DNA of 64,000 nucleotides from Polyangiaceae bacterium (GCA_016929495.1 JAFGIS010000266.1:17260-81259); one strand, 5' to 3'. Positions 5,045 through 54,903 are shown, counted from the stretch's first letter. Notes: generated from the letters alone by a model not told the origin. Translations and numbers: made by a program.

Positions 5045-6337
5045 GTGTGGCATGACATCCGTACGCGGCAAGCTCAGTCCGGTGAGCGTCGGGTGATTCC
5101 AGGACGTTCCCACAAACGCAGGGATGTCGCTCGCTTGCGCGACACCAACAGCCGGCAGTCGCCGGGCGTGCTTGACGTACGCGACCATTGCGTGGCCACG
5201 ACGTTTCCCGGGCTCGAGCAGCTTTGTGCGCAAGAGCTCGCCGGGCTAGGCCTGAACGTGCTCGACGTTTCGCCTGCATCCGTGACGTTTGCGTCCGAAC
5301 GGGAAGGGATGTATCGAGCCAATCTTTGGCTGCGCACCGCGCTGCGCGTTCTATTGCCCATCGCGCAGTTCGACGTAGGGGGACCCGGTGAACTCTACCA
5401 GCGCGCATTGCGGGTTCCCTGGGAGGAGTGGATCGATCCGGCCCGTACGTTCGCCGTCAATGCCAGTGTTCATTCGCAATTCGTGCCGCACTCCAAGTAC
5501 GCGGCGCTCCGCGTCAAGGATGCGGTCGTGGACAGGTTGCGAGATCGCTACGGCCGTCGTCCCTCCGTCGACGTCGGGCAGCCGGACGTCCGGCTCCGCG
5601 TCACGGCGCGCGGGCGCCGCGTCGATCTGGCGCTGGACAGCTCCGGCGAGCCGCTGTCTCGCCGAGGCTATCGCCTCTGCGGAACAACGGCGCCTCTCAA
5701 CGAAGCCGTCGCGGCTGCTGTCGTGTTGTTTTCCGGATGGAACGGCACGAGCCACGCCGTGGACCCGCTGTGCGGCTCCGGCACGCTGCTGGTGGAGGCT
5801 GCGCTGGTGGCGTGCAATGTCGCGCCTGGCTCACTTGGGAGATCCTTCGGTTTCATGACGTGGCCTGAGTTCGACCCGGTTCTGTGGCACCGATTGCTTT
5901 CCGAGGCGCGCAGCGCCACCCGCCAGCCACGTTCCGGACTCATCCTCGGCGGCGATCATTCCGCGGACGCAGTGGTCGCGGCGCGGGCAAACGCCGAGCG
6001 TGCCGGCGTGTCGTCGTGCGTGGAGGTCCGGCACGCGGGTTTCCAGAAGCTGGCCGTGCCTCGGCCTCCGGGGGTGGTTCTGACGAACCCGCCGTATGGG
6101 GTCCGTCTCGATGCCTCCCGCCTCACCGAGTTGTATCGTGAGCTCGGCGATCGGCTCAAGCGGGCCTATGGCGAGTATGAAGCTTGGATCCTCTCCGGCA
6201 ATTTGTCGGCGCTCAAGTCGTTGGGCCTGCGGTCCACGCGCCGGATCACGCTCCTGAATGGAAACATCGAATGCCGTCTCGTCCACTACCCCGTCGTTTC
6301 GCTCGGAAGGGGGCCGACTCTGCTGCGTGCGCGGTAG
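5045..6337 (+). CDS. THUMP-domain class I SAM-dependent RNA methyltransferase (RlmL/UPF0020-like)
   Basis: It shows a THUMP-type N-terminus (ATTFPGLEQLCAQELAGLGL...), a SAM-binding motif (DPLCGSGTLLVEA) and the catalytic NPPYG motif (VLTNPPYGVRL). The true start is probably the in-frame GTG at 5168 (VLDVRDHCVATT...), which gives about 389 aa. The stretch from 5045 to 5167 is Arg-rich and atypical. Confidence 0.75.
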   Translation: MWHDIRTRQAQSGERRVIPGRSHKRRDVARLRDTNSRQSPGVLDVRDHCVATTFPGLEQLCAQELAGLGLNVLDVSPASVTFASEREGMYRANLWLRTALRVLLPIAQFDVGGPGELYQRALRVPWEEWIDPARTFAVNASVHSQFVPHSKYAALRVKDAVVDRLRDRYGRRPSVDVGQPDVRLRVTARGRRVDLALDSSGEPLSRRGYRLCGTTAPLNEAVAAAVVLFSGWNGTSHAVDPLCGSGTLLVEAALVACNVAPGSLGRSFGFMTWPEFDPVLWHRLLSEARSATRQPRSGLILGGDHSADAVVAARANAERAGVSSCVEVRHAGFQKLAVPRPPGVVLTNPPYGVRLDASRLTELYRELGDRLKRAYGEYEAWILSGNLSALKSLGLRSTRRITLLNGNIECRLVHYPVVSLGRGPTLLRAR

Positions 6338-6487
6338 CGGCCTGTCTCCAAGACAGGGCACACAGAAGTAGCCATGCTTTGGTTGGCTCAGACGGGCGTT
6401 TGCTGCAGAATTCGACGGCTTCGCCCAGTTCGAGGCCGTCGAATCCCGCGGCGAATCACGGCGACAGGGCGGCAGGCCAACGTCGAT

Positions 6488-9400
6488 TCAACGAAAATCT
6501 CGGGAACGCTGGCGAAGCCGCGTGACGGGCAGGTCCAGACGCTCCAGACGGCGAGCCAACACATGGATCACCGCCACCTCCGCCTGCGGATGCTTCTGTC
6601 GCTCGATAGGTCCGCGTGCCAGAAGGATCTGAGCATGGCGTGCCTGTAGAGAGAAGCGCGCGAAAACAGAGCGCTGAACAATGAGGTTGACGGTTCCGGT
6701 CTCGTCTTCGAGCGTGATGAAGGTGACCGCACTCGCCGTCATCGGTTGCTGACGGCAAAGGACCATCCCAGCCACGGTGACCCAGCTCCCGCTGTGCACT
6801 TGGTCCAGCTCTCTGGCACGCAAGACCCCTCGTCGCGCGAGCGCCTCACGAAGGTGATTCATGGGGTGATCGTCGATGCTCAGTCCTTTGCGGTCGTAAT
6901 CGAGCACCAGCCGCTCACGCGCGTTGAGATGGGCCAGCCGCACCTCCGGCTCGTCCAGTTCCAAGCCCTCGAACAATCCGAAAAGCCTCGGAGCGCGCGC
7001 CTTCCAGAGCGCCTGTCGGCGGCCCGGTAGCATCGCTTCGAGCGCACCGGCTTCTGCCAGGGCTTCTGTCGCTTGGCGCTTGAGTTCAGTTCGTTGCACG
7101 AGATCCGTGAGTCCTTCCAGCTTCGATTCGCTGCGGGCAGCCTCGATACGCCCACTGGACACGTCACCCAAGCCCCTGACCAATCGCAGTCCGAGCCGCA
7201 GTGCCAGCTCGGTGCTGCCTCCGGCAGATGTCGGCTGCATCTCGTCTACCGCCGGCTCCAGCGTACAGTCCCAGGCGCTCCGCTGTACGCACACGTCGCG
7301 CACCTGTACGCCGTGCCGCTGGGCGTCCCGCACGATGGCTGATGGAGAATAGAAACCCAGAGGCTGGGAGTTGAGCAGCGCACACGAAAAATGCGCCGGC
7401 GCGTGGGCCTTCAACCACGCCGACGCATAAACGAGCAACGCAAACGAGGCGGCATGCGACTCGGGGAACCCATACTCACCGAATCCCTTGATCTGCTCGA
7501 ACAGCGCCTCAGCGAACTCGACGCCTATTCCCTTTCGGGCAAAGCCACCGAGCAGCCGCGCGCGATGCCTGAGTAGTCGTCCTGTCTTTCGCCATGCTGC
7601 CATGTCGCGTCTGAGCTGATCCGCCTCGCCGCCGCTGTAGCCGGCACCCACGATGGCGAGCCGCATGACCTGCTCCTGAAACAGCGGAACTCCGAGCGTA
7701 CGCTCGAGAATCGGCACCAAATCCGGATGGGGCATCGTCACCGGTTCTTCGCCATTCCTACGCCGCAGGTAGGGATGGACCATCCCGCCCTGAATGGGAC
7801 CAGGACGCACGATAGCCACCTCGATGACCAAGTCGTAGAAACATCGAGGCCGGAGCCGTGGGAGCATTGCCATTTGCGCACGGCTCTCGATTTGGAAGAC
7901 GCCCAAGGTGTCTGCCCGACTGACCATGGCGTACACCACGGGGTCCTCGGGAGGAACGCGGGCCAATGCTTCAATCGGATCGAAGGACCCCGCCGACGCC
8001 TCCCCTTGCTCAGATACGAGCGCCAGGCACTTTTTGAGCGCCGTGAGCATACCGAGCCCGAGCACGTCGACTTTGAAGAAGCCGAGCGCGTCGAGGTCAT
8101 CCTTGTCCCAAGGTACCACCGTACGCCCCTGCATCCGTGCTGGCTCCACGGGAGCCACCTCGCACAGATCCGTCGCCGAGAGTATGAAACCACCGACATG
8201 CACCGATAGATGTCGCGGCAATCCCTCGAGTTCTGCACTCAGCTTCATGACTTCTCTGAGCCGAGCATCTCTCGAATCCAAGCCGACTGCAGAGAGATCT
8301 GCGTCACTGATCTCCGTGCTCGTCCAGTGAGTCACACTCGCACTCAATCGATTCGTTTGCTCCAGCGACAACCCAAAGACCTTGGCTACGTCACGTACCG
8401 CGCTCTTGCCCCGATAGGAGATGACCTCCGAGACCATGGCGGCTCGGTGGCGGCCATAGCGCGCGTATATTTCCTGGATGACCTCCTCACGACGTTCATG
8501 CTCGAAATCGATGTCGATGTCTGGAGGCTCGTGACGTTCTGCGCTCATGAAGCGCTCGAACAGGAGATTGCTCCGTGACGGATCCACCGCCGTAATGCCT
8601 AGCGCATAGCAGACCGCACTATTGGCGGCGCTCCCACGACCCTGACAGAGAATGTGCCGACGCCTGGCGATCTCGACGATTTCCCAGGTGCTCAAGAAGT
8701 AGGCCGCCATGTCGAGCTCGGCGATGAGACCGAGCTCCTTCTCGATCTGGACGGAAACGGGCTCTGGAACGCCATGGGGGTAACGCCGAGCCAGCCCCTC
8801 GAGTGTCAAGCGCCGGAGCTTGGCCTCGGCGCTGTCACCTGGCTCGAGCTCGCAGGGAAAGCGGTAGTCGAGCTCACCCAAGTCAAAGCGCAAGGCCGAT
8901 GCGATCTCGCCGGTTCGCTCCACCCAGTCCTTGTGGTCGCGAAATAGCCGCAACATCTGGGACTCGGAACGCAGTCGCGCCTCGGCGTTACCGAGCAAGC
9001 GGGTTCCTGCCTCGTCGAGCGTCATACCCTTGCGGATGCACCACAGAACATCCAGGAGTGACTTGCGTGATCGATGGTGCATCAGAGGACGAGCGCTCGC
9101 CACAACCGACAGCCCAAACTCGTGCGAAAGCTCCAGCGCTTGCAGCGTCCGGCGCCGGTCAGCGCCATCCATATGACGGTACACAGCGAGAAAGGCGTGG
9201 TCTGCGAAGCGCTCGCGCAAGACTCCGAGCAACTCCGTCACGGCTGCGTTTCGGACACAACGGGCGTCGTCGACGGGAACGAGCGCCACCAAGCCCGCGG
9301 CATGTTCAGCCAACCAAACGGGCTCTAGCATGCTCTTGCCCTTCGGGAGGCCGGAATGCGCCAACGTCAGAAGCTGGCACAAATTCGTGTAACCCGTACG

Positions 9401-9799
9401 GTCCTGCACCAGTAAGGAGACGACAGGAACGCCGTCGGTTTCGGTGCTCTCGAACGCCTGTGCGCGGCGATCACCTGACCGCATGTTCGGATTTCGCTGA
9501 GCCGGACCGCGCGTCGGATGGGCACGCTGTCCACGTGGACGGGTTGCGCGACCATTCCGCGAACCTCGACGCGCCATGTGAGAGGCAGCGTGACTCACGG
9601 CCAGTTCTGCTCCGACGATGAAGCGCTGTCCGACCGCGCGCGCACGGACCCAGGCACGGACGACACCGTACAAGCCGCCATGATCACAGAGTGCCAGGGC
9701 GCCCAAGTCGAGCTCTTTGGCACGCTCAATCAATTCCTCCGGCTGAGACGCACCGCGCAAGAAGGAGAAGCACGAGCGCGCCAGCAGTTCGGCAAACAT
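6488..9799 (-). CDS. dnaE2: Error-prone DNA polymerase DnaE2 (ImuC)
   Basis: The N-terminus MFAELLARSCFSFLRGASQPEELIERA is the canonical DnaE2 PHP-domain start. Pol III alpha core motifs run throughout (DIDIDFEHERREEVIQEIYARYG, GGFILS, FKVDVLGLGMLT). It sits immediately downstream of imuA-imuB. An Arg-rich insertion of about 50 aa follows GAELAV. Confidence 0.9.
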   Translation of the reverse strand: MFAELLARSCFSFLRGASQPEELIERAKELDLGALALCDHGGLYGVVRAWVRARAVGQRFIVGAELAVSHAASHMARRGSRNGRATRPRGQRAHPTRGPAQRNPNMRSGDRRAQAFESTETDGVPVVSLLVQDRTGYTNLCQLLTLAHSGLPKGKSMLEPVWLAEHAAGLVALVPVDDARCVRNAAVTELLGVLRERFADHAFLAVYRHMDGADRRRTLQALELSHEFGLSVVASARPLMHHRSRKSLLDVLWCIRKGMTLDEAGTRLLGNAEARLRSESQMLRLFRDHKDWVERTGEIASALRFDLGELDYRFPCELEPGDSAEAKLRRLTLEGLARRYPHGVPEPVSVQIEKELGLIAELDMAAYFLSTWEIVEIARRRHILCQGRGSAANSAVCYALGITAVDPSRSNLLFERFMSAERHEPPDIDIDFEHERREEVIQEIYARYGRHRAAMVSEVISYRGKSAVRDVAKVFGLSLEQTNRLSASVTHWTSTEISDADLSAVGLDSRDARLREVMKLSAELEGLPRHLSVHVGGFILSATDLCEVAPVEPARMQGRTVVPWDKDDLDALGFFKVDVLGLGMLTALKKCLALVSEQGEASAGSFDPIEALARVPPEDPVVYAMVSRADTLGVFQIESRAQMAMLPRLRPRCFYDLVIEVAIVRPGPIQGGMVHPYLRRRNGEEPVTMPHPDLVPILERTLGVPLFQEQVMRLAIVGAGYSGGEADQLRRDMAAWRKTGRLLRHRARLLGGFARKGIGVEFAEALFEQIKGFGEYGFPESHAASFALLVYASAWLKAHAPAHFSCALLNSQPLGFYSPSAIVRDAQRHGVQVRDVCVQRSAWDCTLEPAVDEMQPTSAGGSTELALRLGLRLVRGLGDVSSGRIEAARSESKLEGLTDLVQRTELKRQATEALAEAGALEAMLPGRRQALWKARAPRLFGLFEGLELDEPEVRLAHLNARERLVLDYDRKGLSIDDHPMNHLREALARRGVLRARELDQVHSGSWVTVAGMVLCRQQPMTASAVTFITLEDETGTVNLIVQRSVFARFSLQARHAQILLARGPIERQKHPQAEVAVIHVLARRLERLDLPVTRLRQRSRDFR

Positions 9800-9820: not shown

Positions 9821-11854
9821 TCAATCAGCGATACCGTGAAGATACCGTTGATTCGTGCGCTGATCGACGAACACGAGCGCCTCGAGCTTGCCCGATGAGC
9901 TGGCGAGCAGCAGTCTGAGGTAGTCACGCGCCACGGGCGCAGGGGTCCACCACTCCACGGCCTCAAGCCGTCGCTCAAATGCGACCTTTTCGATACAATA
10001 CATCCGCTGCCCAATGTTCAACAGCGCGCCCGGCTCGAGCGGTGTCTCCACGCGGACGGCCCGGGGCAAAAGCCGTGTAGTGGTCGGGTGCTCTGCAACG
10101 GCTGGCAAGGTCTTACGCACACCGCCCGCAACCCCCGAAGCGGTCGGGCGCACACCATGAGGGTCCGTCTTGGTACCTCGCGTCTGTTGAAGCGACGGGG
10201 CTTTCGACGCCCCTGACTGGGCGACACCCCCGGTCTGAGCCAACCAACGGGTTGTTTGTTCAGTGCTCTGTCTTGGAGACAGAGCACTGAGACGTCGTGG
10301 CCCGGTTTCCTTCAGTTGTTCTCCACTCACCGGGAATAGCGCGCATTTTGCTTCAGGCCGATGGGCATCGAGTAAACGGAACGTCCCCACTCGATCGCGC
10401 CCCAGATCAGCCTCGAGCTCGCTGAGAAGTACAGACAAGGTCGCTTCGTCTCCGAGCCCGGCACCCTGTCCCGCTGCACGCAACAAGTCGAGCTGGCGCG
10501 CAAACGCTTCGGTGAGAGACGTCACCTCGAGCTTCATGCCCAGACTGGGGGCAGCCAAACGCAGCGCCTCGAGCCTGACGCGCAGCACCCTGAGCAGCTC
10601 TTGCTCCCTCCATAAAGCGGCAGCCAACGTGAACTCGAGTATGATCTCCGGAGGTTGTCCGTTGATTGCGGCCACGGCGCGGTCGCATTGAATGACCCAT
10701 CGTAGCCGTTGAGCTGCCTGTCCTCGCCCAGCGAGGCGAGCGCTGAGCCGTGCCACTAGGCCACGTAGCACGAACAAAAGAGGCTCTAAGCCGGCGACGG
10801 GCTCCTCCCAACGGGTCTCTTCTACCACGCTTTCGGGTAGCTCATAGCGAACCAGCGCGTCTCGATCGATACCCTGGCACAGGTCGAGCACCCGTTTGGC
10901 CTCCTCTCCGAGGCGAGGTGCCACGGCTGCGCGAGGCAACCTAGCGAGCTCGCCCACCGTCAGCACGCCGACCCGCGCAAGCCAGGCCACGCGATCGGAC
11001 GAGAGACCCAAGGCAGGGACCGGGAGCTCGGCAATGCTTTTCTGAAGCTGTGCCGGAGAGACGATGCTTTCTGGTTCGTCTGGAGCAGCCCAACGTGCCA
11101 ACGCCTGGGCCAGCCGGGGTCCAACCGTAATGCAGACGTGTGCCGTATGGCCGAGCGCGCGCACTGCCATGCTAAGCTCATTGGCCAATAGCCGCTCTCC
11201 ACCGAACAAATGCGCGACACCTGTCACATCCACCCATACTGTGTCGGGTGCTTCGATGGAAACGTTGGTCCCGAACACGAGCAAGGCCTCGGCGATTCGA
11301 CCCAGGGCGTTGAGTACGTCTTCCTCGTGCAGGGAGCGCACGGCGAGCCTGGTTGAGATGACCCAGGCTTCCCGGAGCGTTTGTCCTTCACGCAAACCCA
11401 GGCGCCGCGCTTCCGCGTTGACGGCCGACAACTGGGTGGTGGCCTCCAACCCGCCTACCGCCCGCGGTTTGCCTGACGGCAATCCGACGATAGGGAGCGC
11501 GAGCTGCTGCCCAGGCAAGCCCTGCGAAGCATCAGAGGATCTACCGGCTCTGTCGAGTAGCACCACGCCCAACGGTAACGGTCGGCTTGAGGCGTCGGCT
11601 CCTGTCTGTCTCTGAGGTCCCCGCGGCTTAGAAAATGGAGGGTCTTGGGTTGGCTCCACCAACTCACAGAGCAGCTCGGGCAGCACAACGGCGGCTATAC
11701 GCCGTTGGTTCTCCTCGCTGGCGTTTTTAGGTAACGCCGCTGTGGTGTCCCTGCCATCTTGCCGCGCCGATCCGTTCCGCGGCTGCGACGCGGCTGCGAT
11801 TCGGTCAGCGTCCAAGCCCAGCGAGCAGAGTGACTCACGCGAACAGCCGGGCAT
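9821..11854 (-). CDS. imuB: ImuB, Y-family DNA polymerase-like mutagenesis protein
   Basis: It shows the IAAVVLPELLCELV start of the Y-family-like palm and the motif VWVDVTGVAHLFGGE. It lies between imuA and dnaE2, and its start overlaps the imuA stop by 20 nt. Confidence 0.8.
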   Translation of the reverse strand: MPGCSRESLCSLGLDADRIAAASQPRNGSARQDGRDTTAALPKNASEENQRRIAAVVLPELLCELVEPTQDPPFSKPRGPQRQTGADASSRPLPLGVVLLDRAGRSSDASQGLPGQQLALPIVGLPSGKPRAVGGLEATTQLSAVNAEARRLGLREGQTLREAWVISTRLAVRSLHEEDVLNALGRIAEALLVFGTNVSIEAPDTVWVDVTGVAHLFGGERLLANELSMAVRALGHTAHVCITVGPRLAQALARWAAPDEPESIVSPAQLQKSIAELPVPALGLSSDRVAWLARVGVLTVGELARLPRAAVAPRLGEEAKRVLDLCQGIDRDALVRYELPESVVEETRWEEPVAGLEPLLFVLRGLVARLSARLAGRGQAAQRLRWVIQCDRAVAAINGQPPEIILEFTLAAALWREQELLRVLRVRLEALRLAAPSLGMKLEVTSLTEAFARQLDLLRAAGQGAGLGDEATLSVLLSELEADLGRDRVGTFRLLDAHRPEAKCALFPVSGEQLKETGPRRLSALSPRQSTEQTTRWLAQTGGVAQSGASKAPSLQQTRGTKTDPHGVRPTASGVAGGVRKTLPAVAEHPTTTRLLPRAVRVETPLEPGALLNIGQRMYCIEKVAFERRLEAVEWWTPAPVARDYLRLLLASSSGKLEALVFVDQRTNQRYLHGIAD

Positions 11855-12623: not shown

Positions 12624-12629
12624 CGTATA

Positions 12630-40253: not shown

Positions 40254-40397
40254 CGCAACTTTCGCGTGTGAGCGCCCCGCCCAGTCGCGGGTTTCGATCC
40301 GGCGACTTCTCGTCCTCGGTCAGCGAAGGGCATGGGTTCGCGGAGCGCGTGGCCGGTCGAGTTGATAGACCTCGGGCCGGCCGCTACGCTCCCGGGT

Positions 40398-41084
40398 ATG
40401 CACGGCCGCGAGAGAGTCCCCCCACGCTTGGTCGATGCGCCGCTCCAGTCGTCAGACCGCTCGAGCGTGCCCCCGGCGGAAGCGCGCGGTAGCTATCATC
40501 ATACTGGTCTGCGCCAAGCGTTGGTCGACGCGAGCCTGGAGCTGCTCGCCGAACGCGGGCCACGCGCGGTGACGCTGCGCGAAGTCGCCCGCCGTGCCGG
40601 TGTGTCGCACTCGGCGCCCTACCGCCACTTCTCGGACCGGTCCGCGCTGCTCGCAGCGGCAGCGGCCCGGTGTCTCGCCGAGCTCGGCGCCTGCTTGTCG
40701 TCGGCGCGACGCGCGGCCGGGGCTTCTGCGTCAGCGCAGCTCGAGGCCATGATGCGCGCGTACGTCGACTTCGCCGTGTCGAACCCGGGCCGGTTCCGGC
40801 TGATGTTTGGCTCGGACATCCAACGAAAGCTGGCGGAACTGCACGGACCGGAAGCCGGAGCCGTCGTCGAACAGATCGCTGACGCGCTCGCCAGCGACTC
40901 GAGGCCCGCTGGAAGCGTTGCCGACCCCCAGCTGTGGGCACAATTGGCCTGGGCCACGATGCACGGCTTGGCAAGCTTCGCCGTCGACGCCGCACTCGCG
41001 GGAGCTCGGTCGAGCTCCACCAGTGACCTTCTGCGCGCCGCGGCGCGCATGATCCATTCGAGCCTTCTGCCACCAAGGCCCTAG
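40398..41084 (+). CDS. TetR/AcrR family transcriptional regulator
   Basis: It has the TetR HTH signature (AVTLREVARRAGVSHSAPYRHFSDRSALLAA) and a helical C-terminal ligand domain. The start is taken at the ATG at 40398. Confidence 0.85.
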   Translation: MHGRERVPPRLVDAPLQSSDRSSVPPAEARGSYHHTGLRQALVDASLELLAERGPRAVTLREVARRAGVSHSAPYRHFSDRSALLAAAAARCLAELGACLSSARRAAGASASAQLEAMMRAYVDFAVSNPGRFRLMFGSDIQRKLAELHGPEAGAVVEQIADALASDSRPAGSVADPQLWAQLAWATMHGLASFAVDAALAGARSSSTSDLLRAAARMIHSSLLPPRP

Positions 41085-41160
41085 TGCATCGTTTCCATTG
41101 GAACGATGCCCAAGAACACGGGGTACCGCGGGTCAGATCGCCGGGAAGCGGCGGTTTTCT
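41081..41160 (+). repeat. Palindromic MITE/BIME-like intergenic repeat, copy A (may extend to ~41238)
   Basis: The sequence is CTAGTGCATCGTTTCCATTGGAACGATGCCCAAGAACACGGGGTACCGCGGGTCAGATCGCCGGGAAGCGGCGG. It shares the hairpin and about 50 nt of core with copy D at roughly 85% identity by eye. Its first four bases contain the tetR stop codon. Confidence 0.75.
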
Positions 41161-41281
41161 CAGTCTCTCCGCCCGCCGGTCGAGGCTCTCCTCGCTTCGC
41201 CCGGCGCGAGGCAATCGATGGCGCGCCGAGCCTCCACAGATGGCTTGCACCCGGGCTCGGTCAGGAGCATGAAGCTGTGTC

Positions 41282-42019
41282 ATGCAAGAGGAACTCCTCG
41301 GCGGCCTTCGCGTGTGGGTTACAGCCTCCAGGGCACCGCAAACCAAGTCCCCGCGCCTGGTGGTGGTCCTTCTGCACGGCTTCGGAGCTCCGGGCGACGA
41401 CCTGGTAGCTCTGTCGCATGGGCTGGCCGTACCCCCCGGAACGGTCTTCGCGTTTCCGGAAGCGCCAGTGTCCCTGGCCGGCGTCCTTCCCGCGATGTTG
41501 TTGCGTGAGGCGCGTGCTTGGTGGCTCCTTGACTTGGACTCCCAGGAAGCCGCCCTGCGGGCTGGCCGTTTCGAAGTACTCACAGCCTCCAACCCGCCTG
41601 GCCTCGAGACCGCTCGCAACGCAGTGGTTTCCATGCTCGACGAGCTCCAGCGCAGCCACGAAGTGAGCCCTGAGCGAATCGTGCTCGGGGGCTTCTCTCA
41701 GGGTGCCATCGTTGCCTGCGACGTGGCGCTTCACGACACGCGGCCTCTCGCGGGGTTGGTCCTGATGAGCGGTACGCTGATGGCCCAGGATGCATGGGTC
41801 GCAGGGATGCCCTCTCGGATTGGACTACGGGTGCTCCAGAGTCACGGGTCCGACGACACGCTGATGCCCCCAGCATTGTCCGAGCGCCTACGTGATCTCT
41901 TCGTCGCGGCGGGCCTCAGTGTCGACTGGGTGCCCTTCCGCGGTGGGCACAGCGTGCCTCAGGCCGTACTGACGCGTCTGGAAGCCTTTCTGGCTCACCT
42001 CGCGCCTGAAGGTTCCTAG
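41282..42019 (+). CDS. Phospholipase/carboxylesterase family alpha/beta hydrolase
   Basis: It shows LLHGFGAPGDDL, the nucleophile elbow GFSQGA and late HGSDD...GGH, which is the classic carboxylesterase (Abhydrolase_2) pattern. Confidence 0.8.
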   Translation: MQEELLGGLRVWVTASRAPQTKSPRLVVVLLHGFGAPGDDLVALSHGLAVPPGTVFAFPEAPVSLAGVLPAMLLREARAWWLLDLDSQEAALRAGRFEVLTASNPPGLETARNAVVSMLDELQRSHEVSPERIVLGGFSQGAIVACDVALHDTRPLAGLVLMSGTLMAQDAWVAGMPSRIGLRVLQSHGSDDTLMPPALSERLRDLFVAAGLSVDWVPFRGGHSVPQAVLTRLEAFLAHLAPEGS

Positions 42020-42075
42020 TGCATCGTTTCGATTGAAACGATAGCCCAAAACCGGGATGGGCAGGCTAGACTGGC
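42016..42075 (+). repeat. Palindromic intergenic repeat, copy B (truncated/degenerate)
   Basis: The sequence is CTAGTGCATCGTTTCGATTGAAACGATAGCCCAAAACCGGGATGGGCAGGCTAG. It has the same terminal CTAGTGCATCGTTTC hairpin as copy A, and its CTAG contains the esterase stop codon. Confidence 0.65.
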
Positions 42076-42292
42076 TGTCTCGGCACCGGTCGCGATGGTC
42101 AGCTCGCAGGGCGGGAACGTTCCCCTGCGAAGACGTCCTCCGGACAGGCAGCCGGAGTGCCAGCATCCCTTCCACGACGCCTCGAACGGACCAGGCCCAC
42201 CCCAACTGCGCCCGTCCGACACTTCGCTGTCGGGAGGCCTGACGCTCGCGCGGGCCGCAAACGCGCGCAGGGCGTGGACGGGTACGCGAAAG

Positions 42293-44851
42293 ATGCTAGG
42301 CACCCTGATTGGCGTCGACACGGCCGCCGGGGGTTCGGCGGTGTCTTCTTCAAGCGCGAATGGTCCACCCACAATGACTTCTGCAGCCAGCCGACAGCAA
42401 ACGGATGCCCCCCTGGTCGAAGGGAGCGATGCGGAATTGGAGCGAATCGTACGCGAAGAAGAGCAATGCCTGGCTCGCGTCCTGAGCCGCCTTGCGCTTC
42501 GCACCTCGCGTCGGCCCGAACCGGTCTACAACGAGTACTCGGACTACGATGCTCAGCTCCTGGCGCTACGTGACGAGCTGGCCTGCGCGCGCCTGGAGGA
42601 TGTACCCCCGCTGGTCGAACAGATGGAACGGCTGCAGAGCCTTGCCGCGCGGCGCCGCGAAGTGGTCGAAAGCCACGTCGACGCCAAGTCCCCCTACTTC
42701 GGGCACCTGGTGCTCGAGGAGGGCGGACGTCAGCGCGATGTGCTTGTCGGTCGTGGGACGTTTCTCGACACCGCTTCGGGGGTGCGTGTCGTCGATTGGC
42801 GCGATGCGCCGGTCAGTCGCCTGTACTACCGATACGAAGAGGGCGACGACTACGACGAGATCTTCGGCGACCGAGAAATCGAAGGGCGCGTCGTGGTGCG
42901 TCGCACCGTGGCGGTGGTCGACGGCAAGCTCCGCCGAGTCGCTTGCCCACAAGGCCGCTTTGCCTGCGGTGCCGACGGGCGTTGGACGCGGTTGGCATCG
43001 GAGTCGATGCGGCTAGCCGGCGGTCAGGGAACTGCGGCTCGTGCAGAGCAGCATCATCGCCTCGCCAAGCTGGGGGTGGGCGACGGGGACCTCACCGAAG
43101 ACAAGCACCTCAGGGAGATCACGGCCCTCATCGACCCGCGTCAGTTCGAGCTGATCACGCGAGAGGACTCGGGCCTGGTCGTCATCCAGGGCGGAGCCGG
43201 CAGCGGAAAGACGACGATCGGGCTGCACCGGCTCGCGTACCTCGCCTACCTGGATCCACGCCGGTTTCGGCCCGACCGTGTGCTCGTCGTCGTCTACAAC
43301 GATGCGCTCGCGCGCTATGTCTCGAAGGTCCTGCCCGCGCTCGAGGTGGAAGGTGTCCCGATCCGGACGTACGAGAACTGGGCTCGACGTCTGAGGACTA
43401 CCCACCTGCCGGATCTTCCGTCGGGCGTCGCCGAGGAGACGCCAGCGGTCGTAACGCGGCTGAAGAAACACCCTGCCATGCTCCACGCCGTGGACGCGCA
43501 CGCACGTCGGATTGCCGACCGATTCGAGACGGAGCTGCAACGTGCGCTCGGGCTGGCCCCGGACAGCGCGCACCGTGAGGCACTGCAAGCAACCTGGGCG
43601 CGAACATCGGCCCAGCCCTTCGCGCACAGAGTACACGCCATCGCCAGCGGGATGCGGTCACACGCGGCAACCCTGCCGGTCGACGCCCGAGTCGCGCTCG
43701 AACGTCTGGCAAGAATTGGTCTCGAGCAGGCACGCGACATCCCGGGGAGCTGGGCGGAGATGCTGAGCGATCGCCGGGCGCTCGAAGCGGTATTCGAGCG
43801 GTTCGCTCCAGGGGAGTTCTCGAGCGTCGATTTCGACCGAGCACTGGCCTGGTGCAGCAATCGTTGCTCACAGCTGCTTGGCGAACTCGACGAACAGACC
43901 GACCCGTCTGCTGCCGGGGACGGCTATCGCGCAACGCGCGCCGCCGAGGCGGCGAACGCTCGTCAGTTGTACGCGGACGACGAGCCAGACATCCTGCAGG
44001 GCATCGACGGACAAGACCTCGAAGAACCCGCAAGCCTCGACCGAGAAGACGACTCGATACTGCTGCGCCTCATCCAGAGGCTACGGGGGCCGCTCATGCG
44101 TGGAACGAGGGGAAAGGAGGCGCTGGTCTACGAGCACGTGTTCGTGGACGAAGCGCAGGACCTCAGTCCAGTGGAGCTCGCCGTCGTGCTGGACACGCTG
44201 AGCAGGGCTCGTTCGATTACGCTCGCTGGTGATGTCGCCCAGAGACTGCACATGGACAACGGCTTCTCCGACTGGCGCACTGTGCTCGACGAGCTCGGGC
44301 TGGCCCATACCGAAGTGGAGCCGCTGCGACTGAGCTACCGCTCTACCCACCAGATCATTGCTTTCTCCACGGCGGTCCTCGGCCCTCTCGCCGAGGACCG
44401 GGAGGGACACGCGGTCCGGAGCGGAGCTCCCGTGGAGCTCTTCGACTTTGGACACACCGGCGACGCGGTGGCCTTCCTGGCCGAGCAGTTGCGCGAGCTG
44501 ATGCAGGCGGAGCCGCGGGCTTCCGTGGCAGTCATCGCTCGGTACCCCGAGCAGGCCGACTTGTACTACGCCGGACTCAAGAACGGCGACGTGCCTAGGC
44601 TTCGGCGAGTGGCCGAACAGGACTTCTCATTCGCGCCGGGTGTCGACGTCACCGACGTCCGTCAGGTCAAGGGTCTCGAGTTCGACTATGTCATCCTCGT
44701 CGAAGCCACGAGCTCGAGCTACCCGGTCGACGAGGAATCGCGGCACCTTCTGCATATTGCTGCCACGCGGGCGGCGCATCAGCTGTGGCTGCTCTCTCCT
44801 GGCACGCCGAGCCGGTTGGTACCCGAGAAGCTGCGCGTACGAAGCTACTAG
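42293..44851 (+). CDS. helD: HelD-like (helicase IV / UvrD superfamily 1) RNA-polymerase-associated helicase
   Basis: It has a HelD-type N-terminal region (SPYFGHLVLEEGGRQRDVLVGRGTFLD...VRVVDWRDAPVSRLYY), a Walker A (VVIQGGAGSGKTTIGLHRLAYL), a DEAQ box (VFVDEAQDLSPVEL) and a late motif (VRQVKGLEFDYVILV). The start is uncertain: ATG at 42293 or 42374, while the listed ORF begins at 42095. Confidence 0.8.
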   Translation: MLGTLIGVDTAAGGSAVSSSSANGPPTMTSAASRQQTDAPLVEGSDAELERIVREEEQCLARVLSRLALRTSRRPEPVYNEYSDYDAQLLALRDELACARLEDVPPLVEQMERLQSLAARRREVVESHVDAKSPYFGHLVLEEGGRQRDVLVGRGTFLDTASGVRVVDWRDAPVSRLYYRYEEGDDYDEIFGDREIEGRVVVRRTVAVVDGKLRRVACPQGRFACGADGRWTRLASESMRLAGGQGTAARAEQHHRLAKLGVGDGDLTEDKHLREITALIDPRQFELITREDSGLVVIQGGAGSGKTTIGLHRLAYLAYLDPRRFRPDRVLVVVYNDALARYVSKVLPALEVEGVPIRTYENWARRLRTTHLPDLPSGVAEETPAVVTRLKKHPAMLHAVDAHARRIADRFETELQRALGLAPDSAHREALQATWARTSAQPFAHRVHAIASGMRSHAATLPVDARVALERLARIGLEQARDIPGSWAEMLSDRRALEAVFERFAPGEFSSVDFDRALAWCSNRCSQLLGELDEQTDPSAAGDGYRATRAAEAANARQLYADDEPDILQGIDGQDLEEPASLDREDDSILLRLIQRLRGPLMRGTRGKEALVYEHVFVDEAQDLSPVELAVVLDTLSRARSITLAGDVAQRLHMDNGFSDWRTVLDELGLAHTEVEPLRLSYRSTHQIIAFSTAVLGPLAEDREGHAVRSGAPVELFDFGHTGDAVAFLAEQLRELMQAEPRASVAVIARYPEQADLYYAGLKNGDVPRLRRVAEQDFSFAPGVDVTDVRQVKGLEFDYVILVEATSSSYPVDEESRHLLHIAATRAAHQLWLLSPGTPSRLVPEKLRVRSY

Positions 44852-44977
44852 CTAGTGCCGCGTTTCGATTGAGTTGAGGGGCCGGAAGCGGCGGCGCTTC
44901 CGGCCCCAAACCCACTCGTCTGAGCCGCGGCACCCCTCGTTCTTGTGCATCGCTCCAATTGAAACGATGCACAAGAC
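44852..44977 (-). repeat. Palindromic intergenic repeat, copy C (full length, inverted orientation)
   Basis: The plus strand starts CTAGTGCCGCGTTTCGATTGAG. It contains a perfect 13-bp GC hairpin (GGGGCCGGAAGCG-GCGG-CGCTTCCGGCCCC). It ends with CCTCGTTCTTGTGCATCGCTCCAATTGAAACGATGCACAAG, which is the reverse complement of the hairpin plus AAGAAC core of copies A and D. Confidence 0.75.
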
Positions 44978-45112
44978 TTGCCGGCGGAACGTCTCCCGCC
45001 AGACAGAGTGTCAATACGCCGGGGCCGCACTAGGCCAACGGGCCTGTTCTGGACGCGGGCACGGTTCGGCAGATGGTTGACCGTGAGCTTCGGCCATGGT
45101 CACTAGGCGGTC

Positions 45113-46120
45113 ATGGGTTGGCTACCTCCGAAGGCAATGGCTGCGGTGATCGCACTGTCGGCTTGGGGATGCGCCGAGACGCCCGCAGCGACGACGCCCG
45201 TGGGTTGCGACTCCGCCGTCCTGAACGAACCGCGGCCGGCGCCGAGCCCGGCCCCGCCCAGGCGACCTCACAGCCTGCCCGCCGACGTGGTCGAACGTGC
45301 GGCTCGCGATTTTCAGGGTCTTCGTGCTGATGGCGAGGCTCTCTCACCGGAGGAGCTTCTTGGTGAGATTGGACGCGCCAGCGTTCTCTGCATCGGGGAA
45401 GAACCCGCCGCGCCACATCACCACTGGATGGAGCTCACGGTCATCCGTGAGCTCCACAAGCGTGCGCCAGCAAGAGGCATCGAGCTCGGCCTCGGCCTCA
45501 CGATCTTCGCTGCGCGCGACCAGCGCTGGCTCGACCAGTACGCCGCTGGAGAACTCGGCGAACGCGACCTGCTCGGCGTGACCCACTACCAGGACAACTG
45601 GGAGCTCGACTTTGCGCTGTACCGCCCCCTCGTCGAGTACGCTGTTTCGCGGGGCGTCGCGCTCGTTGGCCTCAACGCTCCCTCCGAGCTCGTCAACCGA
45701 GTCGCGAGCGGCGGTCTCGAAGCCCTGCCCCCAGAGCAGGCCGAATCCCTCCCGGAGCTCGATCTCGACAACCCCGCGCATCGCCGCGCGTTCGATCAGG
45801 ACGGAAGCCGTGTTCCGGCGGCAGGGGTCGACGCGGACAATGCCTATTCGGCCGAGGTCCTCAGCGAGGAGACTGTTGCCGAACATGCGGCGCGTTGGGT
45901 GACCGAACGCCGACCCGCCCGTCAGCTTCTGGTTATTGCGAGAGCAAAACAGTGCGAACGTACTGCCATACCTGCGCGGATTGCGCGTAGGGGCGTCGCG
46001 AGGGCTCTGAGCCTCTGTCCTCTGGCCGAACCCCAAGGAACGTCACCCCGACCCGGCCTCGAAGGCTTCGACTACGGTTTCGTGATGGGCCCTCCAGGCG
46101 TTGGCGCCACGAACGACTAG
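45113..46120 (+). CDS. ChaN-like (DUF399, Tiki/TraB superfamily) lipoprotein
   Basis: It has a lipobox (ALSAWGC) and the motif CIGEEPAAPHHHWMELTVIRELH, which resembles the GExH..H core of ChaN/haem-binding uptake family proteins. Confidence 0.5.
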   Translation: MGWLPPKAMAAVIALSAWGCAETPAATTPVGCDSAVLNEPRPAPSPAPPRRPHSLPADVVERAARDFQGLRADGEALSPEELLGEIGRASVLCIGEEPAAPHHHWMELTVIRELHKRAPARGIELGLGLTIFAARDQRWLDQYAAGELGERDLLGVTHYQDNWELDFALYRPLVEYAVSRGVALVGLNAPSELVNRVASGGLEALPPEQAESLPELDLDNPAHRRAFDQDGSRVPAAGVDADNAYSAEVLSEETVAEHAARWVTERRPARQLLVIARAKQCERTAIPARIARRGVARALSLCPLAEPQGTSPRPGLEGFDYGFVMGPPGVGATND

Positions 46121-46323: not shown

Positions 46324-46387
46324 GGGCGACAGCTTCGGTTCGTCCCGCTCGGGCGAACCGAAGTTGTCGCCCGATTTCTCTTTTGTT
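46324..46387 (+). terminator. Strong hairpin followed by a T-rich tract (intrinsic-terminator-like), plus strand
   Basis: The hairpin is GGGCGACAGCTTCGGTTCG-tcccgctcggg-CGAACCGAAGTTGTCGCCC, about 19 bp with one mismatch. It is followed by GATTTCTCTTTTGTT, which is striking in a genome of about 70% GC. It lies about 200 nt downstream of the ChaN-like stop. Confidence 0.4.
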
Positions 46388-46485: not shown

Positions 46486-46558
46486 AGCGGGACACGAGGT
46501 TCGAACTCGCGACCCCAAGCTTGGGAAGCTTGTGCTCTACCAGCTGAGCTAGTCCCGC
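46486..46558 (-). tRNA. tRNA-Gly (anticodon CCC)
   Basis: It was folded by hand on the minus strand as GCGGGAC-TA-GCTC-AGCTGGTA-GAGC-A-CAAGC-TTCCCAA-GCTTG-GGGTC-GCGAG-TTCGAAC-CTCGT-GTCCCGC-T. It is 73 nt and CCA is not encoded. Confidence 0.9.
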
Positions 46559-54000: not shown

Positions 54001-54639
54001 CTGCGCTTCGCCGTCCTCGCGATCCATGAAGTGCACGTCGTTCGTCGCCACGACGGGCAACGCGAAGCGGCGGGCCATCTGCGTCAATAGGTCGTTCACT
54101 ACGCGCTGTTCCGGCAGGCCGTGGTCCTGAAGCTCGACGAAAAGGCGCTCGGGGCCAAAGGCGTCGCGCAGTTTGCCCAGGACGTCGGAGGCGCTGTCGA
54201 CGCCGTATTCGAGCACTTGCTGGGGGACAACGCCGCCCAAGCATCCGGTGAGACCGACGAGGCCCTCGGCGTGTTCGGTCAGAGTATCGAAGGCGATGCT
54301 CGGCGCTTGATCGCTTGCAGGTTGCAGGTAGCCGAGCGACACCAGGCGAATCAAGTTGCGGTAGCCGCAACCGTCTGCAGCGAGCAGCACCATGTGGTCG
54401 ACGACGCCGTTCCCCGACGGACGCGCCACGTTGACTTCGCAGCCGAGAATCGGCTGGACGCCGGCTGCTTTCGAGGCGGCATAGTGACGAACTGCGCCGA
54501 ACATGTTGGCGTGGTCGGTCACGGCCACGGCGCGCATGCCGAGCTCGTGCACACGTCCCGGAAGGCTCTTGAGCTTCACTGCGCTCGTTAGGAACGAGAA
54601 CTGCGTGTGGACGTGCAGATGTACGAAGTCATGGTCCAT
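51082..54639 (-). CDS. dnaE: DNA polymerase III alpha subunit (replicative)
   Basis: It has the PHP start (MDHDFVHLHVHTQFSFL), Pol III alpha core motifs (PDFDVDFC, GMHAAGVVIS, FDFLGLKTLT, YGVPVYQEQVMQ, GFGYNKSHSAAYA-like GFNKSHSAAYAL) and an OB fold at the C-terminus. The start is taken at the ATG at 54639. Confidence 0.95.
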   Translation of the reverse strand: MDHDFVHLHVHTQFSFLTSAVKLKSLPGRVHELGMRAVAVTDHANMFGAVRHYAASKAAGVQPILGCEVNVARPSGNGVVDHMVLLAADGCGYRNLIRLVSLGYLQPASDQAPSIAFDTLTEHAEGLVGLTGCLGGVVPQQVLEYGVDSASDVLGKLRDAFGPERLFVELQDHGLPEQRVVNDLLTQMARRFALPVVATNDVHFMDREDGEAQLYLECVRLGRTYAEVQSSHHGSFEMYLKSPQEMAALFRGHPEALRNTLRVAEVCSGLELTLYRPMLPRFQVPDGYDVATYFRHVAREGLERRLEQSRSLSKEVDEQAYRARLENELEVIVRMDFPGYFLIVWDFIRHAKSHGIPVGPGRGSGAGSLVAYALGITEIDPLPYHLLFERFLNPERVSMPDFDVDFCMVQRDRVFEYVSQKYGKRSVGQIATYQNLKARSVIKDVARAMGISAPEAQRIASLVPEKGQGKMCTIDEALQEEPKLRALHDEDPRVAELLKQARKLEGLTRHAGMHAAGVVISEGPLDDHVPCFSSDGAIVTQYDKDDVEAAGLVKFDFLGLKTLTVIDIAQRLVNARPDRVDQRLDLARVPLEDPDTYALISSGETTGVFQLESSGMQQLLRGLKPDCFEDVIAAVALYRPGPLSTGMVEDFVGGKHNRKPIRKLHPLVDDVLKPTYGVPVYQEQVMQIAQHLAGFTLGGADLLRRAMGKKKAEEMARQQEIFVRGAIERGVSAEQAVAVFREVEGFAAYGFNKSHSAAYALVTFQTAYLKAHYPTEFFAAILTADKDKIEKVVRTIAEARAWGVSVLPPDVNASETDFTVVYATPNGDGPRRGPGRLRDRFGPRIRFGLGAVRGVGESALETVFDARRAGGAFRDLFDFASRVDSKRLNRGVLEALVQCGAFDATVGAAGIGRARAFAAVDRALERSRSASRDRERGQTTLFGLLDQASPGAGRVAPPDEYPAVQEWDRLELLRREKAALGCYVTGHPLYRYGARLGGIAVTPTLKVAAEQPWSVVGVAGMVEDYREKLFRAGGGRVAFFKIEDVVGRVGAKLRGDKLETYSALLTRGDPVVVTGKVSFPVSDDPDEEREPTLLVDGVELVAAAILKSTRLLVIRLDAGVVQREQLAELGVLLREAPGGCPVELQLDLGNGVEAVLTLGSVLVTPDDMLLAGLERLFGGNVVELA

Positions 54640-54763
54640 GAGCGCGGCTCGCGTAGCATGCTTGCAATTCGTTTCCCTTGAAATGCCGGGTCCCCCCCAG
54701 CTGGGTGCGGGCAGCGACAGACCCGGCATCTCGGACCGGTCTGAACCGGTACTCCTTGTCGTC

Positions 54764-54903
54764 TGGGCGACGTTTCGATCGAAACGTCGCCCAAGAACAA
54801 GGGGTGCCGCCGGTCAGATCGCCGGGAAGCAGCGTTTTTTCGCCGCCCTCGCCCAGTCGGGGGCGGCGAAAAACCCATCGCTTCGATCGAAACGCGGCAC
54901 TAG
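54764..54903 (+). repeat. Palindromic intergenic repeat, copy D (full length)
   Basis: The sequence is TGGGCGACGTTTCGATCGAAACGTCGCCCAAGAACAAGGGGTGCCGCCGGTCAGATCGCCGGGAAGCAGCG-TTTTTCGCCGCCC..GGGCGGCGAAAAA-CCCATCGCTTCGATCGAAACGCGGCACTAG. It lies in the divergent dnaE / ompA-like intergenic region. Confidence 0.8.

What the first reader, a model, noticed from the sequence alone, without database searches (positions are those of the whole stretch)
41081..44977. Apparently uncharacterised palindromic MITE/BIME-like repeat family: three copies in 4 kb and a fourth at 54764-54903
Four intergenic elements share one architecture.

1. A 26-34-nt hairpin is built on CGTTTCnATnGAAACG. Copy A reads GTGCATCGTTTCCATTGGAACGATGC and copy B GTGCATCGTTTCGATTGAAACGAT. 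Copy C, on the minus strand, reads CTTGTGCATCGTTTCAATTGGAGCGATGCACAAG. Copy D reads GGGCGACGTTTCGATCGAAACGTCGCCC.
2. A conserved core follows, AAGAACAnGGGGTnCCGCnGGTCAGATCGCCGGGAAGC. Copies A and D are about 85% identical over ~50 nt by eye.
3. A second, copy-specific GC-rich hairpin has 13-bp perfect arms in both C and D.
4. A terminal half-palindrome ATCGAAACGCGGCACTAG is present in C and D.

The two ends are inverted repeats of each other (CTAGTGCnnCGTTTCGAT). That geometry fits a non-autonomous transposon (MITE) or paired REPs (BIME). No transposase or RAYT gene is present in the window. The six-frame track independently shows the repeat as near-identical pseudo-peptides: HRFHWNDAQEHGVPRVRSPGSGGF, RRFDRNVAQEQGVPPVRSPGSSVF and VHRFNWSDAQERGVPRLRRVG.
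Basis: seen in the sequence. Interest (0 to 1): 0.7.

Follow-up and report, generated by a model that had tools for sequence, protein, structure and literature searches.

The report
IS630-derived MITEs in a Polyangiaceae genome
The repeats are real: they are small, non-coding "hitch-hiker" transposons (MITEs) whose ends match those of IS630/Tc1-mariner-type insertion sequences of myxobacteria, an ordinary kind of mobile DNA that here lands by preference on TAG stop codons without damaging the gene.

Summary
The window, from a Polyangiaceae MAG, holds seven copies rather than four: A, B (hairpin only), C and D, plus D' (head-to-head with D), E1 and E2 (a sister subfamily).

More full copies lie at unrelated loci in metagenome contigs. 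The 34-nt palindrome alone occurs in other Polyangiaceae MAGs.

The element ends (TA|GTGCnnCGTTTCnAT...) match the terminal inverted repeats of ~1.2-kb IS630-family insertion sequences from Myxococcota. The match is 14-17 of 20 nt, which is as good as the two ends of one such IS match each other. In two metagenome contigs such an IS abuts a C-type copy.

Six filled/empty site pairs among ~85-90% identical relatives show insertion at a TA. Three of these are the TA of a TAG stop codon. Because the repeat starts with G, TA+G rebuilds the TAG.

These are therefore IS630-type MITEs, analogous to RUP of pneumococcus. They are not REP/BIME elements and not a known RNA family. No transposase lies in the window.

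The family seems undescribed but is a new member of a known kind. Side findings are an in-frame copy inside imuB and covarying internal hairpins. Interest is modest.

The parts
41081..41221 (+). Copy A: full-length MITE (hairpin 1, core, decayed foldback and right end). It is inserted in the TA of the TAG stop codon of the TetR-family gene 40332..41084.
   Evidence: nhmmer E=2.6e-29 over model 1-142. The site is empty in L092 and L093, which keep the CTAG, and filled in L089/L090.
42016..42052 (+). Copy B: solo or truncated hairpin 1 (two back-to-back terminal repeats). It lies at the 3' end of the Abhydrolase_2 gene 41282..42019, and its TAG is the gene's present stop codon.
   Evidence: Relatives L089/L090/L091/L093 lack the hairpin and encode 7 more residues, 252 vs 245 aa.
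44852..44977 (-). Copy C: full-length MITE on the minus strand. Its right end abuts the TAG stop of the UvrD-like helicase gene (42293..44851). It has a 13-bp GC hairpin inside.
   Evidence: nhmmer E=6.1e-24. Fold z=-8.6. Its right end matches the right inverted repeat of the L074 IS at 24 of 30 nt, counted by eye from the output.
54764..54903 (+). Copy D: full-length MITE in the divergent intergenic region between dnaE (start 54639, minus) and an OmpA-family gene (55022, plus).
   Evidence: nhmmer E=1.3e-37. Fold z=-6.7. L086 and L087 are 82-86% identical copies at other loci.
54660..54795 (-). Copy D': a second MITE (subfamily with GTAC... right end), head-to-head with D and sharing the central hairpin 54764-54795.
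   Evidence: nhmmer E=6.1e-29. The same double element is 83% identical at a different locus in L088, where similarity ends at ...GTACTAG. A single D'-type copy lies at L112 7842-7978.
10172..10292 (-). Copy E1: sister-subfamily MITE (ends TA|GTGCCCTGTCTCC) inserted in frame inside imuB. It is translated as a ~40-aa linker insertion.
   Evidence: The ImuB alignment shows the insertion only in P0241 and P0242. Empty sites with TA are in L111 and L112.
6335..6483 (+). Copy E2: full-length E-type MITE just downstream of the dnaE2 stop codon (gene 6488..9799, minus).
   Evidence: nhmmer E=1.2e-39. It is absent from L111, where the junction is at 8092 with a TA, and present in L112 15228-15375.

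Best explanation

**Structure**
- Each full copy is about 125-150 nt.
- Each is bounded by inverted copies of an 18-30-nt terminal repeat, TA|GTGCnnCGTTTCnAT(T/C)GA... This is the repeat carried by a clade of ~1.2-kb IS630-family insertion sequences of Myxococcota.
- 'Hairpin 1' is two such repeats back to back. In other Polyangiaceae this 34-nt palindrome exists alone.
- The rest of the element is a long foldback that ends in a third repeat.
- Several pairs of repeats can therefore serve as ends. This accounts for the solo hairpins, the 140-nt units and the D'-D double unit.

**Mechanism (inferred)**
- An IS630-family DDE transposase encoded elsewhere in the genome binds the repeats through its N-terminal helix-turn-helix domains.
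- It cuts the element out and pastes it into a TA dinucleotide, preferably within CTAG.
- The TA is duplicated on insertion.

**Consequence for genes**
- TA is scarce in this 65% G+C genome.
- The repeat begins with G, so insertion into the TA of a TAG stop codon rebuilds TAG and is harmless.
- Copies therefore pile up exactly at gene ends.

**Shown:** the end homology, the TA at empty sites, presence/absence among relatives and the dispersed copies.

**Inferred:** which transposase acts, and whether the elements are still active.
For: **1. Match to IS630 ends**
- A 1197-bp IS in a Nannocystaceae MAG (L074 4006-5202) carries the motif at both ends in inverted orientation.
- It encodes an IS630 transposase: NF033545 at 153.8 bits against a cutoff of 100, plus DDE_3 and HTH_32.
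- ISs retrieved independently by protein homology have the same ends. The P0234 type has at least 9 different flanks with CTAGTGCACCGTTTCCAT... / ...AAACGGTGCACTAG. The P0123 type is similar.
- MITE ends share 14-17 of 20 nt with these IS ends. The two ends of one IS share 14-16 of 20 with each other.

**2. TA as target**
- L104 has G-TA-G at the left flank instead of CTAG, so only the TA (at most TAG) is repeated at both ends.
- Six filled/empty site pairs all have a TA at the junction: the TetR stop, the pnp stop, the ptsI stop, inside imuB, downstream of dnaE2 and upstream of imuA.

**3. Dispersal**
- There are 7 copies in the window.
- L086, L087 and L088 carry copies at unrelated loci.
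- The palindrome sits at contig ends in several Polyangiaceae MAGs.

**4. Physical link to an IS**
- In L114 and L116 an IS630-family IS abuts a C-type MITE end and shares the CTAG with it.

**5. Published mechanism**
- IS630/Tc1-mariner elements insert at TA and duplicate it. IS630 itself prefers TA within CTAG (PMC2170065 and the Tenzen & Ohtsubo 1991 title in its reference list).
- RUP of S. pneumoniae is a MITE assigned to IS630-Spn1 on the same two criteria (PMC2229807).
Against: - No transposase gene lies in the 64-kb window. The rest of the source genome could not be scanned, so a cognate IS in the same genome is not shown.
- The IS seen next to MITEs (L114/L116) has less similar ends: 12-14 of 20 nt for its left end and 10-12 of 20 for its right end.
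- The best-matching ISs come from a Nannocystaceae MAG and from unassigned metagenome contigs.
- Site B has no TA in the relatives' empty site. Copy C sits one CTAG after the stop codon rather than in it.
- Most copies in the window have decayed ends (CTTG, CTGG, ATCG), so they may no longer move.
- The perfectly paired but sequence-divergent internal stems are not explained by transposition alone.
Confidence: 0.87

Rival explanations
1. REP/BIME (REPIN)-type elements: palindromes tagged by a tetranucleotide (here CTAG instead of GTAG). A single-copy RAYT (Y1/HUH) transposase would recognise them as single-stranded hairpins and spread them, without target duplication.
For: - The unit is a tetranucleotide plus a near-perfect hairpin, found alone or in inverted pairs with a linker.
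- Stems stay paired despite sequence change. For REPINs this has been attributed to selection on the hairpin; that comparison is from my own knowledge, not read here.
Against: - The same terminal sequence bounds complete IS630-family ISs with DDE transposases.
- Empty sites carry a TA, and one IS copy has GTAG rather than CTAG at one end. The C is therefore flank and the TA is duplicated.
- No Y1 transposase was seen in any locus inspected, but this was not searched for systematically.
Confidence: 0.04
2. The repeats are mainly functional RNA or regulatory modules (3'-end stabilisers, terminators, sRNA or protein-binding sites) kept by selection. Their transposon ancestry would be incidental.
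For: - Strong hairpins have z-scores of -5 to -9.
- Many copies sit at gene 3' ends.
- The foldback apex is conserved across subfamilies while the stems covary.
- Some sites are kept in relatives ~85% identical: site A in L089, and E2 in L112.
Against: - Rfam gives no match, even at E<=1 for the 41-45 kb region. The D region gives only far sub-threshold hits.
- Copies occur in both orientations relative to neighbouring genes, in a divergent promoter region (D/D') and inside a coding sequence (E1).
- Six sites differ in presence or absence between close relatives, with no sign of need.
- The hairpins have no U-tract after the stem, so none is a canonical intrinsic terminator. The scan picks up only the small terminal palindrome of D.
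Confidence: 0.07
3. A purely local duplication or chance similarity confined to this stretch of the genome.
For: Five of the copies lie within 14 kb (41-55 kb).
Against: - Copies lie at 6.3 kb and 10.2 kb in the window.
- Full copies lie at unrelated loci in three metagenome contigs and in L112.
- Motif counts are far above those in shuffled sequence.
Confidence: 0.01

Closest known systems
RUP (repeat unit of pneumococcus), the MITE attributed to IS630-Spn1 in Streptococcus pneumoniae
   Same: - It is a ~100-150-nt non-coding element.
- Its terminal inverted repeats resemble those of an IS630-family IS.
- It inserts at TA and is presumed to be mobilised in trans.
- It also inserts next to or into other mobile elements (PMC2229807; compare L107, L114, L116).
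   Different: - No sequence relationship was noted with the published RUP description; no alignment was run.
- It comes from a different phylum.
- The present elements have a back-to-back repeat palindrome at one end plus a long internal foldback.
- They form head-to-head doubles and are strongly associated with TAG stop codons.
[quoted passage not shown]
IS630 family insertion sequences (IS630 of Shigella sonnei, ISY100 of Synechocystis) and eukaryotic Tc1/mariner
   Same: - The target is TA and it is duplicated on insertion. IS630 prefers CTAG (PMC2170065).
- The terminal repeat of the window elements is that of a Myxococcota clade of this family.
   Different: - The window elements carry no transposase, so they are derivatives or parasites of such ISs.
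- The Myxococcota ISs found here encode the transposase in two overlapping frames. The L074 copy has an A8 run in the overlap.
REP / BIME / REPIN elements mobilised by RAYT
   Same: - They are short extragenic palindromes, found single or in inverted pairs.
- They are abundant at gene ends and their hairpin pairing is maintained.
   Different: - REPs carry a GTAG tag and depend on a Y1/HUH transposase without target duplication (from my own knowledge of the family; not read here).
- Here the ends equal DDE-type IS630 ends, and a TA is present at empty sites and duplicated at filled ones.
Rickettsia palindromic elements (RPE) and other MITEs found fused in frame to genes (ERIC, YPAL, 107-bp Correia)
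   Same: Copy E1 is a palindromic MITE inserted in frame in a conserved gene (imuB), adding about 40 residues without breaking the ORF (PMC2229807).
   Different: - Only one of seven copies is intragenic.
- The family and the host are different.
- No evidence bears on the function of the added peptide.

Membership tests
MITE (non-autonomous DNA transposon) | Terminal inverted repeats at both ends | tested here: met
   - C and D carry CTTGTGCATCGTTTCAAT / CTGGGCGACGTTTCGAT at the left and CTAGTGCCGCGTTTCGAT (reverse complement) at the right.
- The same holds in L086, L087, L088 and L112.
MITE (non-autonomous DNA transposon) | Small size and no transposase coding capacity | tested here: met
   The elements are 124-149 nt, too short to encode a transposase. 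tblastn with IS630 transposases finds nothing in the window.
MITE (non-autonomous DNA transposon) | Multiple dispersed copies | tested here: met
   - 7 copies in 64 kb.
- Copies at unrelated loci in L086, L087, L088 and L112.
- The whole-genome copy number is not known.
MITE (non-autonomous DNA transposon) | Filled versus empty sites among related genomes, with target-site duplication | tested here: met
   - Six polymorphic sites were found.
- A TA lies at every empty junction.
- Intact copies are flanked by TA on both sides.
IS630/Tc1-mariner-derived MITE | Ends similar to the terminal repeats of an IS630-family IS | tested here: met
   - 14-17 of 20 nt identical to L101- and L074-type IS ends. 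The two ends of one IS share 14-16 of 20.
- The C right end matches the L074 right repeat at 24 of 30 nt, counted from the output.
- The ISs are confirmed as IS630 family by NF033545 and PF13358.
IS630/Tc1-mariner-derived MITE | Insertion at TA with 2-bp TA duplication | tested here: met
   - Empty sites read C-TA-C (imuB), GGG-TA-GG (pnp), CC-TA-GC (ptsI) and C-TA-G (TetR).
- L104 shows G-TA-[IS]-TA-G.
- A 3-bp TAG duplication cannot be strictly excluded at the stop-codon sites. It is excluded at the imuB site.
IS630/Tc1-mariner-derived MITE | Cognate transposase present in the same genome | tested here: inconclusive
- L114 and L116 show an IS630-family IS directly abutting C-type MITE ends. 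They come from the same JGI sample series as relatives L089, L111 and L112.
- That IS has less similar ends: 12-14 of 20 nt (left end) and 10-12 of 20 (right end).
IS630/Tc1-mariner-derived MITE | Mobilisation in trans by the transposase | not testable with these tools
   This needs a transposition or binding assay.
REP/BIME/REPIN (RAYT-dependent) | No target duplication; a conserved tetranucleotide that belongs to the element | tested here: not met
   - The TA pre-exists at empty sites.
- The outer C of CTAG is replaced by G in L104.
REP/BIME/REPIN (RAYT-dependent) | Single-copy RAYT (Y1/HUH) gene flanked by the repeats | not tested
   - No whole genome was available.
- No Y1 transposase query was run.
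- None was noticed in the loci read.
Any Rfam RNA family | Match to a curated covariance model at or near the gathering score | tested here: not met
   - Only three tRNAs reach the gathering score in the window.
- There are no hits at E<=1 in 40900-45200.
- In 54550-55000 there are only chance-level hits of 13-23 bits against cutoffs of 40-150.

The most novel reading that the evidence does not exclude
The elements may be more than passive parasites. The repeat starts with G, so insertion into a TAG stop codon is silent. This may have let Polyangiaceae accumulate them as standard 3'-end modules. The internal foldback has a conserved apex (C(C/T)TCGCCCAG..GGGG) and stems that covary. It could be under selection as an RNA or DNA hairpin, acting as an mRNA 3' stabiliser, a U-tract-independent terminator or a protein-binding site. 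Read-through copies such as the one in imuB could also supply new linker peptides.
Probability: 0.1. Interest if true: 0.5.

Novelty: new member of a known kind. Interest (0 to 1): 0.3.

Why it matters
- **Annotation and assembly.** These repeats break short-read contigs. The Logan contig L085 ends inside copy C, and several MAG contigs end in the palindrome. The repeats also generate spurious ORFs and can shift apparent gene ends, since B supplies the stop codon of a hydrolase gene.
- **Markers.** They give ready-made presence/absence markers for telling closely related, uncultured Polyangiaceae populations apart.
- **Biology.** The clean rule 'TA target plus a repeat that starts with G equals a silent hit on TAG stop codons' explains simply why IS630-type MITEs collect at gene ends in high-G+C genomes. 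The in-frame copy in imuB is a further example of a MITE becoming part of a conserved protein.
- **Limits.** None of this changes what is known about how such elements work.

Tried and rejected
1. **Genome-contig scan with CTAGTGCNNCGTTTCNAT.** With 15 specified bases the pattern was too short for 596 Gb. The Polyangiaceae and Nannocystaceae hits within it were still the key leads.
2. **REP/RAYT reading.** I held this for some time because of the 'tetranucleotide + hairpin' look. I dropped it once L074 showed the motif at both ends of an IS630 IS and the empty sites showed a TA.
3. **Intrinsic terminator idea.** The T and A runs around D's hairpin are part of the stem, and C has no T-run.
4. 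**4-bp CTAG duplication (IS5-like).** L104 (GTAG at one end, CTAG at the other) and the imuB empty site (CTAC) argue against it.
5. **Plasmid database search with the D'/D double.** No match.
6. **Literature searches.** Searches for REP, MITE or IS630 in myxobacteria, Sorangium or Polyangia found nothing relevant.
7. **GC3-based gene calling of the whole window.** It was unreliable in this genome, so the window was not fully annotated. A window-wide check for other transposase types was not done.
8. **P0242 locus.** This relative shares the imuB insertion, but its DNA could not be fetched.


Full report
**1. The observation**

The four copies are present at the stated coordinates.

- The hairpin motif CGTTTCNATNGAAACG with up to 2 mismatches occurs 7 times, against 0.15 expected from shuffles.
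- The end motif CTAGTGCNNCGTTTCGAT with up to 3 mismatches occurs 7 times, against 0.47 expected.
- A and D are 86% identical over 69 nt, and A and C are 86% complementary over 57 nt.
- C, D and D' fold far better than shuffled sequence, with z = -8.6, -6.7 and -5.4.

Profile searches added three copies. D' (54660-54795, minus strand) shares the central hairpin with D. E1 (10172-10292, minus) and E2 (6335-6483, plus) belong to a sister subfamily with ends TA|GTGCCCTGTCTCC.

B is only the first hairpin. A has a decayed right end.

**2. Where the window comes from, and the surroundings**

Proteins of the window are identical to NCBI entries named 'MAG... [Polyangiaceae bacterium]' on an 83-kb contig (P0001; P0241).

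The neighbouring genes are as follows:

| Copy | Position relative to genes |
|---|---|
| A | Between a TetR-family gene and an Abhydrolase_2 gene |
| B | Between the Abhydrolase_2 gene and a UvrD-like helicase gene |
| C | After the helicase, before a ChaN-like gene |
| D'/D | Between the true start of dnaE (54639) and an OmpA-family gene |
| E1 | Inside imuB |
| E2 | After dnaE2 |

A Logan short-read contig identical to the window ends inside copy C. This is typical of a repeat.

**3. It is a dispersed family**

A metagenome scan with the core pattern found three more copies.

- L086 and L087 are full elements at unrelated loci.
- L088 carries the D'-D double element next to a sigma-factor-like ORF rather than dnaE. 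Similarity stops exactly at ...GTACTAG.

The genome scan was noisy because the pattern was too short. It still showed the perfect 34-nt palindrome CTAGTGCATCGTTTCGATCGAAACGATGCACTAG in several Polyangiaceae MAGs, often at contig ends.

**4. What moves it**

In a Nannocystaceae MAG the motif occurs twice in inverted orientation, 1197 bp apart (L074 4006-5202).

- Between the two motifs lie two overlapping ORFs joined at an A8 run.
- They hit IS630-family transposase: NF033545 at 153.8 bits against a cutoff of 100, plus PF13358 DDE_3 and HTH_32.

Homologues of this transposase are very numerous, mostly on ~1.2-kb contigs. The ISs fetched by protein identity alone carry the same ends.

- The P0234 type is 1201 bp and was found with at least nine different flanks. 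It always reads ...CTAGTGCACCGTTTCCATTGAGG... at one end and ...AAACGGTGCACTAG... at the other.
- The P0123 type is similar.

Over the first 20 nt after the TA, the MITE ends share 14-17 positions with these IS ends. The two ends of one IS share 14-16. The right end of C matches the right repeat of the L074 IS at 24 of 30 positions (my count).

In two metagenome contigs (L114, L116) another member of this IS clade sits directly against a C-type MITE end and shares the CTAG. These contigs come from the same JGI sample series as the window's closest relatives. The window itself has no IS630 transposase.

**5. Target and mobility**

Relatives about 85-90% identical in DNA to the window were fetched through orthologous proteins. 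They give six filled/empty pairs.

| Site | Filled in | Empty in | Sequence at the empty junction |
|---|---|---|---|
| TetR stop codon (copy A) | window, L089/L090 | L092, L093 | ...CTAG\|CG and ...CTAG\|GC |
| pnp stop codon | L112 (D'-type) | window 13668-13703 | GGG-TA-GGCG |
| ptsI stop codon | L112 (E-type) | window ~16593 | GCC-TA-GCG |
| Inside imuB (E1) | window | L111, L112 | C-TA-C |
| After dnaE2 (E2) | window, L112 | L111 | TA at the junction |
| Upstream of imuA | L112 | window, L111 | not resolved |

One IS copy (L104) has G-TA-G at its left flank instead of C-TA-G. The duplicated unit is therefore TA. The element begins with G, and the outer C/G reflects a CTAG preference.

This is the published behaviour of IS630/Tc1-mariner elements: TA duplication, and for IS630 a preference for TA within CTAG (PMC2170065).

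TA and CTAG are both depleted in the window: 855 against 1907 expected, and 54 against 204 expected.

Because TA plus the leading G of the repeat rebuilds TAG, insertion in a TAG stop codon leaves the protein unchanged. This explains why A, the pnp and ptsI copies, and the copies in L086, L089 and L092 start exactly at stop codons.

B is the exception. It lies in what is coding sequence in relatives. The hydrolase is 7 residues shorter in the window, and its stop codon is the element's TAG.

**6. Anatomy**

- Hairpin 1 is two terminal repeats back to back.
- The 'core' GGGGTGCCGCnGnTCAGATCG pairs with the right end CGATCGAAACGCGGCAC. It looks like a decayed inner repeat.
- The 140-nt unit may therefore be a fusion of a 34-nt repeat-repeat palindrome with a ~100-nt foldback MITE. 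That fusion then spread as a unit, since A, C, D, L086 and L087 share the junction.
- Because each insertion recreates TA/CTAG at both ends, element ends are themselves good targets. This fits the head-to-head D'-D double, the IS-next-to-MITE contigs and L107.
- This last step is inference.

**7. Rivals**

- REP/BIME is rejected on end homology to a DDE-type IS and on the TA evidence.
- A primary RNA function is unlikely. There is no Rfam match. Copies occur in both orientations, in a promoter region and inside a coding sequence. Sites vary freely between relatives.
- A secondary, acquired function is not excluded. The foldback apex is conserved across subfamilies. The stems differ completely in sequence between copies yet stay perfectly paired.

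**8. Comparison and novelty**

The closest analogue is RUP of S. pneumoniae. It was assigned to IS630-Spn1 on the same two criteria, end similarity and TA targets (PMC2229807).

I found no description of this family in myxobacteria in the literature held here, in Rfam or in the plasmid collection. ISfinder and Dfam could not be queried.

**Verdict:** a real, probably unnamed family. It is a new member of a well-known kind, and its mechanism is textbook.

**Score:** interest 0.3. This rests mainly on the TAG-stop rule, the in-frame imuB copy and the covarying foldback.

Noticed in passing
window 10172-10292 (minus), inside imuB ORF 9821..~11450: MITE copy E1 is read through in frame. It adds about 40 residues (LSALSPRQSTEQTTRWLAQTGGVAQSGASKAPSLQQTRGTKT) to the ImuB linker. 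The closest relative P0242 shares the insertion; P0243, P0244, P0245 and the six more distant ImuB proteins aligned (P0246-P0265) lack it. Empty sites in L111 and L112 have a TA.
   Followed up: yes
window copies C, D, D', E1, E2; L086, L087, L088, L089 1210-1352, L112: The apex of the internal foldback is conserved across subfamilies (C(C/T)TCGCCCAG..GGGG). The lower stem differs completely in sequence between copies yet stays perfectly paired. The cause is unresolved: arm-to-arm correction, or selection for a hairpin.
   Followed up: partly
L114 1-70 and L116 1-70 (JGI 3300056972, 3300057047): An IS630-family IS (P0137 type, ends TA-GTACCTCCCGTCCATTGAAG / TA-GTACCTGGCGGCTATCGAAT) is inserted directly against the end of a C-type MITE and shares the CTAG. 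In L107 an IS end is followed at once by another repeat-like sequence. Element ends seem to be insertion hot spots.
   Followed up: partly
L074 4077-5188; also L094-L109: The IS630-family ISs of this clade encode the transposase as two overlapping ORFs. In L074 an A8 run (GCTAAAAAAAACG, ~4495) lies in the overlap, suggesting programmed frameshifting or transcriptional slippage. Some database entries (P0122, P0221) are single fused ORFs of ~370 aa.
   Followed up: no
window 6488-12700 (minus) and 51082-54639 (minus): An imuA-imuB-dnaE2 mutagenesis cassette lies 40 kb from the replicative dnaE. The longest dnaE ORF starts at 54729, inside copy D'. The conserved N-terminus (MDHDFVHLHVHT) starts at 54639, so a naive gene call would swallow part of the MITE.
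   Followed up: partly
L011 ~99-138, L060 ~80-121, L064 ~100-139 (other Polyangiaceae MAGs): The 34-nt palindrome is there next to a different repeat, GCTGGGCTTCGCCCAGACCCAAA(A)TTCGCTCCGCGAATTT. L060 and L092 also carry a second palindromic type, CTAGTGCCGCG...CGCGGCAC(T/G)AG. These look like further related small elements.
   Followed up: no
window 45020-45033: GGCCGCACTAGG lies 45 nt beyond copy C and resembles a solo right-end repeat (…CGCGGCACTAG). Similar short end-like strings occur at 10747-10759 (GTGCCACTAGG).
   Followed up: no
window, whole: TA (855 observed vs 1907 expected from base composition) and CTAG (54 vs 204) are strongly depleted. This limits the harmless targets for a TA-specific transposon.
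   Followed up: partly
window 46325-46371 (plus): A 20-bp-stem hairpin (GGCGACAGCTTCGGTTCGTC...GACGAACCGAAGTTGTCGCC) followed by a T-rich tail is the strongest terminator-like site in the region. It lies close to the tRNA gene at 46486-46558 and is unrelated to the MITE family.
   Followed up: no
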